Shown: in pieces, positions 53,487-56,098 of the stretch
Position numbering within the stretch: position 1 is the stretch's first letter
How the letters are laid out: each line of letters starts with the position of its first letter
From: the human T2T-CHM13v2.0 reference genome, Homo sapiens
Reading direction: 5' to 3' (one strand)
Length of the DNA stretch: 64,000 nucleotides
Assembly: GCF_009914755.1 (NCBI RefSeq)
Contig: NC_060928.1
Translations under genes and position numbers: made by a program
The notes under the pieces: generated by a model
What the model was told of the DNA's origin: nothing
Seen by the model: only the letters and a program-made list of their open reading frames with translations
Database searches by the model: none

Positions 53487-54276
53487 TCAGTAAAATTAAA
53501 ATGGCTGAAGTGTTGATGACTTAATGTGTTACCTTTTCTAGGGCTATTTGTCTTTTTTTTTTTTTTTGCTGATATTTTTGTGGAGAAAGTAGACCTTGGC
53601 CCAAATTACTGGTTTATTAGAACAAAACCTCAAAGCATTTATGAAAATTAATATATGACAATTGCTTTGTTACCAAGCTAATAATACTATGGTTAGTTTA
53701 ATAGCACCTCAGCTGTTAATTTGTCATTTGGTTTATTTAGGTTGACTAATTTTTTTTCCTGTTTTTAATATTTAGCTTAGCTGGCTTTTTAAAATTCCAT
53801 TCACTCTATTGTCTTTGAATAATTACGGCAAATATAGAGAAATCCAGTTGTAAGTGTAAAGTTGACATTGAGTACCTATGCTTTGCTAAGTACTTCAAAT
53901 TTATTAGCTTTTATTTTCACAATAGCCCTTCAAGGAGTTATATGTGATGTGTCTGGGTTTGGGGCTTCAGAAAGGTGTTGCCTTAAGAAACCATAATAAA
54001 ATTCTAAAAATTAACACTAAATCAAAGACACTTGGTCTCAAGGGGACAAAATAACCCCCAGGCCTTGTAAAATCTGTCACTTGGTTGCCTATAGCAATAC
54101 TGCTAGAGAAAGGCTACCTCAAGAAGAGATTTCACAACCATGGATACATAAACAAAGGCGAAGCATTTTTTAGCCCATTCAAGCACTTCCCTGTAGAAAA
54201 GGAGCTTCATTCAGCCAGTTGCCTCATCCAGAGAAAAAAGAAGTACAAGAGGGGCCAGGCTCACCTTCTACCAGAC

Positions 54277-54499
54277 CATGTACTCCAGAACTTAAAGTAT
54301 AAAAAAAAAAAAAAAAGCCGGGTGCAGTGGGGGACGCCTATAATCCCAGCTACTCTGGAGGCTGAGGCAGGATAATTGCTTCAACCCAGGAGGCGGAGGC
54401 TGCAGTGAGCTGAGATCGTGCCACTGCACTCCAGCCTGGGTGACAGAGAAAAACTCCGTCTCAAAAAAAAAAAAAAAAAAAGATGAAACACCCATAGAC
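54277..54499. repeat. Chimeric local duplication: copy of 47354-47428(+) joined to the reverse complement of 52811-52970
   Basis: Shares an L1-tail/Alu junction with the first donor; shares private Alu variants and an 18-nt unique flank with the second. Confidence 0.85.
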
Positions 54500-56098
54500 C
54501 TGTTTCAGGTCTAAGAATGAAAAAAAATCAATAGACTAATTATGTAGCTCTGAAAAGATTTAAGCTGGTGGCACTGTAAACATCTACCCTTAAGGTACAT
54601 AGTGACTCAAAGGACCTTGAGGTATAAAAGAATGGCATGTTACCTGTTGTAGTAAAGTCCTGAGCATGCCAAGGTAAAGTGGAGAACAGCTTTACATGGA
54701 AAAGACAGACCTTTTAGTTTCTGGGGGAGAAAAGTTCTCTTAAATTAATTGCATCACTCTGATACTTAAAACTTTAATCTCTGTTTTAAGAAGAAAACAG
54801 AAAATATGTCTGTTTGTAACAGAAAAATGTTCTAGATGGGATATGCCCAAGGAAAAGTCCGAGATCCCTGGTATCCACCACGCATTCCTACCTAGAAATT
54901 CACTTTCCAGAGCCTTTTTCTATACAAATCTTGGAGGCTCTTCATATTTTGCTTTACTAAGGTAGGCTTTTATCTTCATAGGTGACAAATAGAGTTTCTA
55001 ATTAAATACAATACAATAAAGAACAAAATGGGAATATTCCCTCTATTGACTTTTGCAAGGTCACAGCAAGTCTGTAAAGTAATAATGTGGATGGTAAGAG
55101 TCCATTCTCATGAATCTGTAATCCTACATAATATAGATTTGTGGCACATTATATTGTCAAAGGATTGAACCTGAAAATGACTTCTGCAAATATGTCTATA
55201 TATAATGTATTTCAGCACTAATTTACTATAAAATAATAGTAGCCAACTCACAGTATTTTTTTTTCTGTATGAGACACTTTCCATTTGCTTTACATATATA
55301 GACACATAATTCCAAAATTAAAAAAACCTCTGGAAATGAAAAGCATTTTTCACAAATTTGCCTGAACTTATTTGGTGTTACAACATGATGTGAATTTACT
55401 TGAGGCTATTTATAGTCTTTATTCTACTTAATCTGAATATTCATTTCCTGCAGAAATATTAATGTGCTTGATTGTAGGTTACTGCCTCAGATCCTGCTAG
55501 TTCTGTATGGTGAATAAACATCTGGCTTTATTGAATTATATGTGATTTATTTTGTGTATCTTCAAAGTAGCCTCCTTTATTTTTGTTTTGGGGAAGGAGA
55601 ATTGGGGGAGGGGGAGTTGGAAAAAGTATTTGGATTTTTTTTTTTTTTAAGAAAAGTCACTAGTTTGCATCATAATATTTGTCCTGAATCTAAAAGAAAT
55701 ATATCGCACATACTTTTCAATTCCCTGAAGTGATCAAAATAATAGTTGAGTTAGATTAATGTCGCCTACACTTAGAATACAAAGAGCCTTTGATTTTCAA
55801 TAGAAAAATAAATCTGTGTTGCTTTTTAATAGGATATGCATCTTTGTTTCCCTTTATTTGAAACTTTGAAATTGCTAATCTTAGCTTTGAAACATATTTA
55901 ATAACCGTAGTTGCTATCTCTGCTTATTTGGTTGTACTCCCAGCCCTTGTCACTGTTAATCGCTGTGATAAGTAGAAAGAATCCTAGGAACCTCCCTTTC
56001 AGTTATCCCTTTGGAAATCTTGTTTTTAATAGCACTTTTCTTTCTGGGCTTGCATGACATTTTATCTTTCTTTTCCTTTCTTTTTGCCGTTTGCAAAG

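What the first reader, a model, noticed from the sequence alone, without database searches (positions are those of the whole stretch)
54273..54512. 223-bp chimeric templated insertion that reproduces an inversion junction between two upstream inverted Alus
Seen, donor A: 54277-54352 copies 47354-47428 on the + strand (CATGTACTCC.GAACTTAAAGTAT L1 tail, A-run, AGCC.GGTGCAGTGG). The window's other two L1PA tails read CATGTATCCC and CATGTACCCT instead. Seen, donor B: from the shared CCCAGCTA onward it copies the reverse complement of 52811-52970, including the non-consensus GGATAATTGCTTCAACCC and 18 nt of non-Alu flank (GATGAAACACCCATAGAC). Seen, context: donor B retains its own TSD, so it is not rearranged. 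The insert is flanked by AGACC, of which AGAC is microhomology with donor B, and the target is a small hairpin, AGACCTG-TTT-CAGGTCT. Many copy-donor differences are reciprocal CpG decay, so the event is old. Inference: a three-jump template-switch or break-repair event that crossed strands through Alu-Alu homology. The product equals the left junction expected from inverting the 5.5-kb interval that holds the candidate third first exon. Standard annotation would label it only as an L1 scrap plus half an Alu.
Basis: partly seen in the sequence, partly recalled or inferred. Interest (0 to 1): 0.8.

Follow-up and report, generated by a model that had tools for sequence, protein, structure and literature searches.

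The report
Old patchwork insertion copied from two neighbours
A 223-base insert in a RUFY3 intron was stitched together long ago from copies of two nearby stretches on opposite strands, joined inside two inverted Alu repeats; it is a clean fossil of a known DNA copying error, not a new kind of element.

Summary
Window 54277-54499 (223 nt) is a chimera.

- **5' part:** it copies the junction of L1 tail, A-run and Alu right arm at 47354-47428 on the + strand (68 of 76 aligned).
- **3' part:** it copies the reverse complement of 52811-52970. That is an Alu right arm, its poly-A and 18 of 18 nt of flank.
- **Genome-wide rarity (T2T assembly):** the 18-mer flank occurs exactly twice, in donor B and in the insert. 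The strict L1-tail/right-arm junction pattern also occurs exactly twice, in donor A and in the insert. A looser junction pattern has 7 matches.
- **Switch point:** informative sites place the switch in a 9-nt identity block, 54344-54352 (Fisher p = 0.003).
- **State of the donors:** both are intact, and donor B keeps its own target-site duplication.
- **Age:** copy and donors differ at 13 of 189 sites, 6.9%, so the event is old.

The best reading is one DNA-templated template-switch event of the MMBIR/FoSTeS or break-repair synthesis type. It has three junctions with 0-1 nt, 9 nt (Alu-Alu, crossing strands) and 4 nt of shared sequence.

This kind of event is known from disease and population rearrangements, so this is a new member of a known kind. 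Interest is moderate. The empty ancestral site could not be tested here.

The parts
54277..54499 (+). The 223-nt chimeric templated insert
   Evidence: Self-BLAST hits start at 54277 (donor A) and end at 54499 (donor B).
54277..54300 (+). Copy of donor A's L1 3' tail (CATGTACTCC.GAACTTAAAGTAT)
   Evidence: Matches 47354-47377 at 23 of 24. Only these two of the window's 4 L1 tails read CATGTACTCC.
54301..54315 (+). A-run between the L1 tail and the Alu right arm
   Evidence: Insert has A15; donor A has TAAAAAAAATAAAA.
54316..54343 (+). Alu right-arm start copied from donor A
   Evidence: 6 informative sites agree with A and 2 with B. One of those 2 (54320) is the outgroup state, lost in A by CpG decay; the other (54334) departs from the outgroup and is read as coincidence.
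54344..54352 (+). Switch interval TCCCAGCTA, identical in donor A and reverse-complement donor B
   Evidence: The last A-specific site is 54343 and the first B-specific site is 54353.
54353..54462 (+). Alu right-arm body copied from the - strand of donor B
   Evidence: 102 of 110 identical. 19 informative sites agree with B, 9 of them shared derived states; 3 agree with A, all three being later changes in B.
54463..54481 (+). Poly-A tail copied with donor B's Alu (A19 against A24 in B)
54482..54499 (+). Copy of 18 nt of donor B's 3' flank: 9 nt of B's target-site duplication plus 9 nt of unique flank
   Evidence: 18 of 18. This 18-mer has exactly 2 exact copies in the assembly.
54273..54277 (+). 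Left copy of AGACC (target sequence)
54496..54500 (+). Right copy of AGACC. AGAC is also the end of donor B's flank, so it is a 4-nt microhomology at the return junction.
   Evidence: donor B reads AGACA where the insert plus target read AGACC.
54495..54513 (.). Target hairpin. The stem is 7 bp in the inferred empty site and 8 bp today, because B's flank adds a T. The loop is TTT.
   Evidence: -6.5 kcal/mol, z = -3.0; 1.1% of window positions lie in such a hairpin.
47354..47428 (+). Donor A: L1 3' tail, A-run and the start of a right-arm-only Alu
   Evidence: It runs on continuously from L1 sequence upstream.
52811..52970 (-). Donor B: right arm, poly-A and 18 nt of 3' flank of a full-length Alu on the - strand
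53137..53150 (-). 5' copy of donor B's own target-site duplication (AAAAAGATGAAACA)
52820..52832 (-). 3' copy of donor B's target-site duplication

Best explanation
The insert is an old, germline-fixed insertion made in one DNA-templated event by a polymerase that switched templates three times within about 7 kb. Read along the + strand:

1. A growing 3' end left the target at ..CCAGAC(C). It landed with 0-1 nt of shared sequence at 47354 and copied 75 nt rightwards: L1 tail, A-run and the start of Alu A.
2. Inside the Alu it re-paired, in register, with the oppositely oriented Alu B through at least the 9-nt block TCCCAGCTA. It thereby changed template strand.
3. It copied leftwards from 52970 to 52811, through B's poly-A and 18 nt of flank.
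4. It came back to the target by pairing its terminal AGAC with the AGAC it had left. This duplicated AGAC(C).

The mirror-image order on the other strand is equally possible.

This is the signature of replicative repair with iterative template switching (FoSTeS/MMBIR), or of break-initiated synthesis with template switches finished by end joining. The donors were copied, not moved.

- **Shown:** the two donors, the switch interval, the intact donors, the junction sequences and the age.
- **Inferred:** that it was a single event, which enzyme or pathway did it, the direction of synthesis, and any role of the target hairpin in stalling or breakage.

No function is implied. The insert sits in a RUFY3 intron, about 1.6 kb upstream of the exon at 56099-56152.
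For: **Two donors.**
- The 18-mer flank has 2 exact copies in 3.1 Gb, donor B and the insert.
- The strict L1-tail/right-arm junction pattern has 2 matches, donor A and the insert. A looser pattern has 7 matches genome-wide.
- With the full insert as query, the best non-self match in the assembly is donor B, and it is the only listed match that reaches query position 238.

**Homology-guided, in-register switch.**
- Left of 54344, 6 of 8 informative sites agree with A. Right of 54352, 19 of 22 agree with B, and the 3 exceptions are later changes in B. Fisher p = 0.0031.
- There is no indel against the window's Alu right arms at the switch.

**Donors intact.** A is continuous with its L1. B has its target-site duplication on both sides.

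**One event.** The two parts are similarly diverged from their donors: 5 of 61 for A and 8 of 128 for B.

**Not L1-driven retrotransposition.** Neither end of the insert has a poly-A, and there is no T-rich nick site.

**Proximity.** The donors lie 1.3 and 6.9 kb from the target, in cis.

**Literature, passages read.**
- Inverted Alus of about 83-85% similarity mediate one junction of inverted complex rearrangements, with 1-9 bp of microhomology at the other (PMC11293582).
- Templated insertions of 7 bp to 13 kb at junctions are taken as the mark of iterative template switching (PMC5120786).
- Chimeric Alus with short identity blocks are ascribed to template switching/MMBIR or MMEJ (PMC6071635).
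Against: - No empty site could be examined. The flanks are unique in this assembly and no other primate or human haplotype is held. The polarity 'insertion' rests on the donors' integrity and on parsimony.
- The left junction has only 0-1 nt of shared sequence, so an end-joining finish is as likely as a microhomology-primed one.
- The 4-nt AGAC match has roughly a 1 in 256 chance per junction of being coincidence. If it is coincidence, AGACC could be a 5-nt fill-in duplication from a staggered break.
- The switch did not use the longest present-day identity block between A and B, an 18-nt run visible further 3'.
- Genome-wide DNA searches scored only 40 of 2698 candidates and 40 of 546. Donor A itself was not among the 40 scored. 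The 'no better match' claim therefore rests on the pattern searches.
- Nothing here separates fork-based from break-based synthesis.
Confidence: 0.65

Rival explanations
1. Multi-step origin. A longer insertion, or two adjacent ones, first brought in an A-derived Alu copy and a B-derived Alu copy in direct orientation. A later Alu-Alu recombination deletion then fused them into one chimeric right arm.
For: Alu-Alu recombination deletions that leave one in-register chimeric Alu are common in human evolution (PMC6071635 passages; PMC9675761). The in-register join is what such a deletion leaves.
Against: It needs at least two rare events at one spot. The first event must already have been a two-donor templated insertion from the same 7 kb, so the template-switch step is not avoided. 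The two parts show similar divergence from their donors, which fits one date. No trace of extra inserted sequence remains.
Confidence: 0.1
2. RNA-templated patch. A break at the target was repaired with cDNA made by a cellular reverse transcriptase (L1 ORF2p). The cDNA started on a transcript of Alu B that ran into its flank, then jumped to a transcript containing the L1 tail and Alu A. This is a class 2 templated sequence insertion.
For: The insert has no terminal poly-A, no long target-site duplication and short junction microhomology. That is the class 2 TSIP description (PMC5110952 passages). The locus is transcribed, being a RUFY3 intron by the hub annotation. Transcribed loci and DNA/RNA hybrids favour templated insertions (bioRxiv 10.1101/2022.09.30.509517 passages).
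Against: The two parts need transcripts of opposite genomic strands. Experimentally induced templated inserts at breaks came from 18 of 24 chromosomes without preference, whereas here both donors lie within 7 kb in cis. The join is an internal switch guided by homology inside the Alu. From recall, not from a call, that is not the usual end-to-end template jump of L1 reverse transcriptase. No splicing or polyadenylation mark is present.
Confidence: 0.08
3. Single-donor copy of a real inversion junction. An allele with 47.4-52.9 kb inverted by Alu A x Alu B recombination existed in the ancestral population. Its left junction, contiguous on that allele (sister, homologue or the same chromosome before re-inversion), was copied once into the target.
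For: The insert is exactly the left junction of that inversion. Alu-mediated inversions of 1-4 kb between Alus of about 82% similarity do segregate in humans, 7 among 3 genomes (PMC9675761 passages). It needs two jumps instead of three.
Against: The assembly shows the non-inverted order with both Alus unrecombined: A keeps its A-type 3' half and B its own target-site duplication and 5' half. An extra, lost or reverted inversion has to be assumed. No reciprocal junction was seen in the window (which were not designed to find one).
Confidence: 0.07
4. Capture of a free double-stranded DNA fragment. A by-product of an aborted Alu A-Alu B recombination or synthesis was ligated by non-homologous end joining into a staggered break, and fill-in made the AGACC duplication.
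For: 0-1 nt of shared sequence at the left junction, and a 5-nt direct repeat at the ends. Insertions at breaks finished by DNA-PK-dependent end joining are documented.
Against: The fragment itself still has to be made by templated synthesis across the two donors, so this differs from the best explanation only in the last step. That AGAC coincides with the next 4 nt of donor B's flank is better explained by annealing.
Confidence: 0.07

Closest known systems
FoSTeS/MMBIR templated insertions with iterative template switches (complex genomic rearrangement junctions; PMC5120786, passages read)
   Same: Inserted DNA is copied from other loci that stay intact. There are several junctions in cis with 0-9 nt of shared sequence, and the donors are nearby. 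The size lies within the reported range of 7 bp to 13 kb.
   Different: Here the templated insertion stands alone. No accompanying deletion, duplication or triplication of kilobases to megabases is visible. The event is old and fixed rather than de novo or pathogenic.
DUP-TRP/INV-DUP and related inverted rearrangements mediated by inverted repeats, including inverted Alus (PMC11293582, passages read)
   Same: One junction forms by a strand-crossing switch between inverted homologous repeats, giving a chimeric repeat. Another forms by 1-9 bp of microhomology. Alu pairs of about 83-85% similarity are reported as mediators.
   Different: The scale is 223 nt copied, against 16-575 kb duplicated or triplicated. 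The segment between the inverted Alus was not duplicated.
Alu/Alu-mediated rearrangement, AAMR (PMC6071635; PMC9675761)
   Same: An in-register chimeric Alu with a short block of perfect identity at the breakpoint, here 9 nt. Template switching or MMBIR is the proposed cause.
   Different: AAMR deletes, duplicates or inverts the segment between the two Alus and consumes the parental Alus. Here both parental Alus survive unchanged and the chimera lies at a third site.
Short-range template-switch mutations, four-point model (PMC5453318, search listing only; PMC7954356, passages read)
   Same: A transient switch to the opposite strand and back during replication, fixed in great-ape evolution. It is associated with local secondary structure at the site.
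   Different: Those events use templates tens to hundreds of nucleotides away and one donor. Here there are two donors, 1.3 and 6.9 kb away, and a repeat-guided intermediate switch.
Class 2 templated sequence insertion polymorphisms (PMC5110952, passages read)
   Same: A stand-alone insert of a few hundred nucleotides with no terminal poly-A, no L1-type target-site duplication and short junction microhomology.
   Different: TSIPs are described as RNA-derived, single-donor and from distant loci. Here there are two local donors on opposite strands, joined inside a repeat.

Membership tests
Replicative or break-repair templated insertion with iterative template switching (FoSTeS/MMBIR type) | Inserted sequence is a copy of other genomic sequence, and the donors remain intact | tested here: met
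Replicative or break-repair templated insertion with iterative template switching (FoSTeS/MMBIR type) | Two or more template switches in cis (three or more junctions) | tested here: met
   The junctions are target/A, A/B and B/target.
Replicative or break-repair templated insertion with iterative template switching (FoSTeS/MMBIR type) | Microhomology or homeology at the junctions | tested here: met
   A 9-nt identity block within about 75% similar Alus and 4 nt of AGAC. The left junction has only 0-1 nt.
Replicative or break-repair templated insertion with iterative template switching (FoSTeS/MMBIR type) | An ancestral empty site | not testable with these tools
   The flanks are unique in the assembly and no other primate or haplotype is held.
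Replicative or break-repair templated insertion with iterative template switching (FoSTeS/MMBIR type) | Dependence on replication or break-induced synthesis | not testable with these tools
   This is a biochemical and genetic property that sequence cannot show.
L1-mediated retrotransposition (target-primed reverse transcription; class 1 TSIP) | Poly-A at the 3' end of the insert | tested here: not met
   The insert ends in CCCATAGAC on + and in ..GTACATG on -. Its poly-A tracts are internal.
L1-mediated retrotransposition (target-primed reverse transcription; class 1 TSIP) | Target-site duplication of at least 5 bp, together with a T-rich nick site | tested here: inconclusive
   A 5-nt AGACC repeat exists, but 4 of its nucleotides are explained by donor B's flank. 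There is no TTTT/A-type site at either junction (criteria as quoted in PMC5110952).
Alu/Alu-mediated rearrangement (AAMR) | In-register chimeric Alu with an identity block at the breakpoint | tested here: met
Alu/Alu-mediated rearrangement (AAMR) | The segment between the two Alus is deleted, duplicated or inverted and the parental Alus are replaced | tested here: not met
   Both parental Alus and the 5.3-kb interval are intact and in standard order.
DUP-TRP/INV-DUP | Duplication and inverted triplication of large segments | tested here: not met
   Only 223 nt are extra. Apart from the interspersed Alu and L1 families, no other local duplicates appear among the repeat families shown in 46.5-55.5 kb (25 of 120 inverted pairs were shown).
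Short-range template switch (four-point model) | A single alternate template within tens to hundreds of nucleotides | tested here: not met
   There are two templates, at 1.3 and 6.9 kb (definition from PMC7954356).

The most novel reading that the evidence does not exclude
The insert is a molecular fossil of a real but now lost or reverted Alu-Alu inversion of the 5.5-kb segment that holds an alternative RUFY3 first exon (48882-49065). The junction was copied from an inverted haplotype, so the region once flipped, or still flips, between orientations in primates. The fossil records the exact crossover point.
Probability: 0.07. Interest if true: 0.6.

Novelty: new member of a known kind. Interest (0 to 1): 0.35.

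Why it matters
The insert is a very clean natural record of a three-junction template-switch event, for four reasons:
- both donors survive a few kilobases away;
- the strand-crossing switch is pinned to 9 nt inside two inverted Alus;
- nothing else was rearranged;
- the event is old enough to have been fixed.

Such stand-alone products are easily filed as 'L1 scrap plus half an Alu'. They therefore go uncounted when the contribution of replicative template switching to genome evolution is estimated.

The insert also shows that inverted Alus of only about 75% present-day similarity, 5.3 kb apart, could guide a strand switch without inverting the segment between them. It carries no evident function, and it does not change what is known about the mechanism.

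Tried and rejected
- **Independent Alu insertion plus unrelated L1 scrap.** Rejected. The 18-nt non-Alu flank and the L1-tail/right-arm junction each have exactly one other copy genome-wide, both within 7 kb.
- **A better donor elsewhere.** A chr12 Alu is 94% identical over the Alu body only, lacks the flank and lacks GGATAAT. A chr10 junction of L1 tail and Alu is a left-arm junction and aligns worse than donor A, score 77 against 110. Both are rejected as donors.
- **A switch in the A-rich linker, with the whole Alu part from B.** Rejected. It would need 6 changes towards donor A's states in 37 nt.
- **L1 target-primed insertion or twin priming.** Rejected. There is no terminal poly-A on either strand.
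- **A paralogous empty site, from the flanks belonging to an old repeat family.** Tried. Both flanks match only themselves in the assembly, so there is nothing to compare.
- **L1 inserted into a full Alu at donor A.** I looked for a left arm upstream. The Alu at 44930-45230 is a separate complete element. This was not pursued further.
- **Literature on this locus.** A search for RUFY3 + Alu + template switch found 0 papers.
- In one search I entered 9 and 14 differences by mistake. The script gives 8 and 13, and the report uses those.
- **A pattern that was too long.** The shorter pattern answered the same question.
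Full report
**What is there**

I read the insert and both proposed donors and aligned them. Window 54277-54499 is 223 nt long.

- *First 76 nt.* They align with 47354-47428 on the same strand at 68 of 76 columns. This part is a 24-nt L1 3' tail (23 of 24 identical), an A-run, and the first 37 nt of an Alu right arm (33 of 37 identical).
- *From 54353 on.* The sequence follows the reverse complement of 52811-52962: 110 nt of Alu right arm (102 of 110 identical), a poly-A (19 A against 24 in the donor), and 18 of 18 nt of sequence beyond the poly-A.
- *Donor B.* It is a full-length Alu on the - strand whose own target-site duplication, AAAAGATGAAACA, is present on both sides. 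The last 9 copied bases (CCCATAGAC) are therefore ordinary unique flank of donor B, and donor B is the original.
- *Donor A.* It runs on continuously from L1 sequence upstream, so it too is the original.

**More than chance**

Identity over the Alu body does not discriminate. In the window, donor B is the best non-self hit (256 bits), but donor A is only fourth by score (87 hits in all). An unrelated chr12 Alu has 9 mismatches over the same 146 nt of Alu body, where donor B has 10. That Alu even shares AATTGCTTCAACCC. The ends of the insert decide the matter.

- The 18-mer flank has exactly 2 exact copies in the 3.1-Gb assembly, donor B and the insert. There are 2 further places at one mismatch. 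The reversed control pattern found 1 forward and 1 reverse.
- The pattern of L1 tail, 8-30 nt, then GCCNGGTGCAGTGGNGG has exactly 2 matches, donor A and the insert, with control 0.
- A looser pattern for an L1 tail followed by this kind of Alu start has 7 matches genome-wide, with control 0. By my own rough arithmetic, two of 7 lying 6.9 kb apart by chance has a probability of about 1e-4.
- Of the window's 4 L1 tails, only these two read CATGTACTCC.
- With the whole insert as query, donor B is the best non-self match in the assembly, and it is the only listed match that reaches into the flank. Only 40 of 2698 candidates were scored.
- With the 5' part as query, donor A was not among the 40 of 546 candidates scored. 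The one listed hit that spans both L1 tail and Alu lies on chr10. It proved to be an L1 tail joined to an Alu left arm, and it aligns worse than donor A, score 77 against 110.
- No third locus carries either diagnostic end, so none can carry the whole insert.

**Where the switch lies**

I aligned the insert, A and reverse-complement B with 23 other Alu right arms from the window, used as an outgroup.

- Left of 54344, 6 informative sites agree with A and 2 with B. One of the two (54320) is the outgroup state, which A lost by CpG decay. The other (54334) departs from the outgroup and I take it for coincidence.
- Right of 54352, 19 sites agree with B. Nine of these are derived states shared only by B and the insert.
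- Also right of 54352, 3 sites agree with A. In all three, B alone departs from the outgroup, so they are later changes in B.
- Fisher's exact test on 6/2 against 3/19 gives p = 0.0031.
- The switch therefore lies in 54344-54352, TCCCAGCTA. This is a 9-nt block identical in both Alus, and the join is in register.
- The two Alus are inverted relative to each other, 5.26 kb apart and 75% complementary over 186 nt today (pair I3). The switch crossed strands.

**The outer junctions**

- *Left junction.* The insert reads ..CCAGAC-CATGTAC, and donor A upstream reads ..TTTTGCA-CATGTAC. At most the single C is shared.
- *Right junction.* Donor B reads ..CCCATAGAC-A and the insert reads ..CCCATAGAC-CTGTTT. 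AGAC is shared between the end of the copied flank and the target, which gives the AGACC..AGACC repeat.
- *Target hairpin.* The target lies in a small hairpin: AGACCTG-TTT-CAGGTCT, -6.5 kcal/mol, z = -3.0, with 3 of 200 shuffles folding as well. Only 1.1% of window positions lie inside a perfect 7-bp-stem hairpin with a 3-6 nt loop. This is suggestive, but it was noticed after the fact.
- *Not an L1-driven insertion.* Neither strand of the insert ends in poly-A and no T-rich nick site is present. An L1-driven insertion is therefore excluded (criteria as quoted in PMC5110952).

**Age**

- Copy and donors differ at 13 of 189 ungapped sites, 6.9% (Poisson 95% interval 3.7-11.8%). The split is 5 of 61 for the A part and 8 of 128 for the B part, which is compatible with one date.
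- Four of the 13 differences are CpG transitions: 54320 in A, 54388 and 54411 in the insert, and 54412 in B. 54286 may be a fifth.
- In the B part there are 9 derived states shared by the copy and B, against 4 private to the copy and 5 private to B. The copy was therefore made when B had already accumulated roughly two thirds of its changes. Some of the 'shared derived' sites may be subfamily markers, so this is a rough figure.
- From recall, pairwise divergence of about 6-7% is roughly that of human against Old World monkey. My estimate is 10-35 million years, with great apes expected to share the insert. This is inference; no other species could be examined.

**Mechanism**

The simplest account is a single DNA-templated event with three junctions, as set out under Best explanation. 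A 3' end leaves the target and copies 75 nt at A. It re-pairs through Alu homology with the opposite strand at B and copies 160 nt there. It then returns by AGAC pairing. The reverse order on the other strand gives the same product.

The literature I read in passages describes the same elements at a larger scale.

- Inverted repeats, including Alu pairs of 83-85% similarity, mediate a chimeric junction. A second junction has 1-9 bp of microhomology (PMC11293582).
- Templated insertions of 7 bp to 13 kb serve as the mark of iterative template switching (PMC5120786).
- Chimeric Alus with short identity blocks are ascribed to template switching/MMBIR or MMEJ (PMC6071635).
- Small Alu-mediated inversions with complex junctions are ascribed to MMBIR or serial slippage (PMC9675761).
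- Templated insertions at induced breaks are enriched near breaks, need donor-acceptor contact and are finished by end joining (bioRxiv 10.1101/2022.09.30.509517).
- Short-range template switches fixed in great apes use templates tens to hundreds of nucleotides away (PMC7954356).

Sequence alone cannot tell a fork-based from a break-based start.

**Rivals**

The rivals are:
- a multi-step origin with a later Alu-Alu deletion;
- an RNA-templated patch;
- a single copy from a real inverted haplotype;
- capture of a free fragment.

The RNA route needs transcripts of both strands and an internal switch guided by homology. It also does not explain why both donors lie within 7 kb, when experimentally induced templated inserts came from 18 of 24 chromosomes. 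The inverted-haplotype reading is the most interesting one. Alu-mediated inversions of this size do exist in people. But the assembly shows both Alus unrecombined, and an extra lost inversion has to be assumed.

**Novelty and verdict**

The event belongs to a known class of mutation, so I rate it a new member of a known kind. The features that are unusual are listed under Why it matters.

A search for RUFY3 + Alu + template switch found no paper. I did not search for other stand-alone examples genome-wide, and I make no claim that none is in print.

No function is suggested. The insert lies in a RUFY3 intron (hub annotation), with the Alu part in sense orientation. Interest is 0.35.

**What remains open**

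- The empty ancestral site.
- The exact date.
- Whether any haplotype is inverted.
- The pathway.

Noticed in passing
window 47540-47660: Immediately 3' of donor A's Alu lies a polypurine tract of about 120 nt, (GA)n/(GGGA)n/(GAAA)n. Tracts of this type are said, from recall, to form triplex DNA and impede forks. It sits beside a donor, not beside the target.
   Followed up: no
window 47392-47546: Donor A's Alu is a right arm only and abuts the A-tail of an L1. No matching left arm was found next to it. The nearest + strand Alu upstream (44930-45230) is a separate complete element.
   Followed up: partly
window 51040-53510: A cluster of about five Alus, all on the - strand and including donor B, lies within 2.5 kb (families D1, D2, D4). 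It lies inverted relative to donor A and to the insert's Alu part.
   Followed up: no
L008 (G000:C12:26296808-26296953, - strand): An unrelated chr12 Alu right arm shares the non-consensus AATTGCTTCAACCC and is 94% identical to the insert's Alu body. This is convergence among the genome's very many Alu copies, and a warning that identity over the Alu body alone cannot name a donor.
   Followed up: yes
window 54495-54513: The T contributed by donor B's flank lengthens the target hairpin stem from 7 to 8 bp in the present sequence.
   Followed up: yes
window 48882-49065: By the hub annotation, an alternative RUFY3 first exon lies inside the interval bounded by the two inverted donor Alus. Any real Alu-Alu inversion there would flip it relative to the gene.
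   Followed up: no
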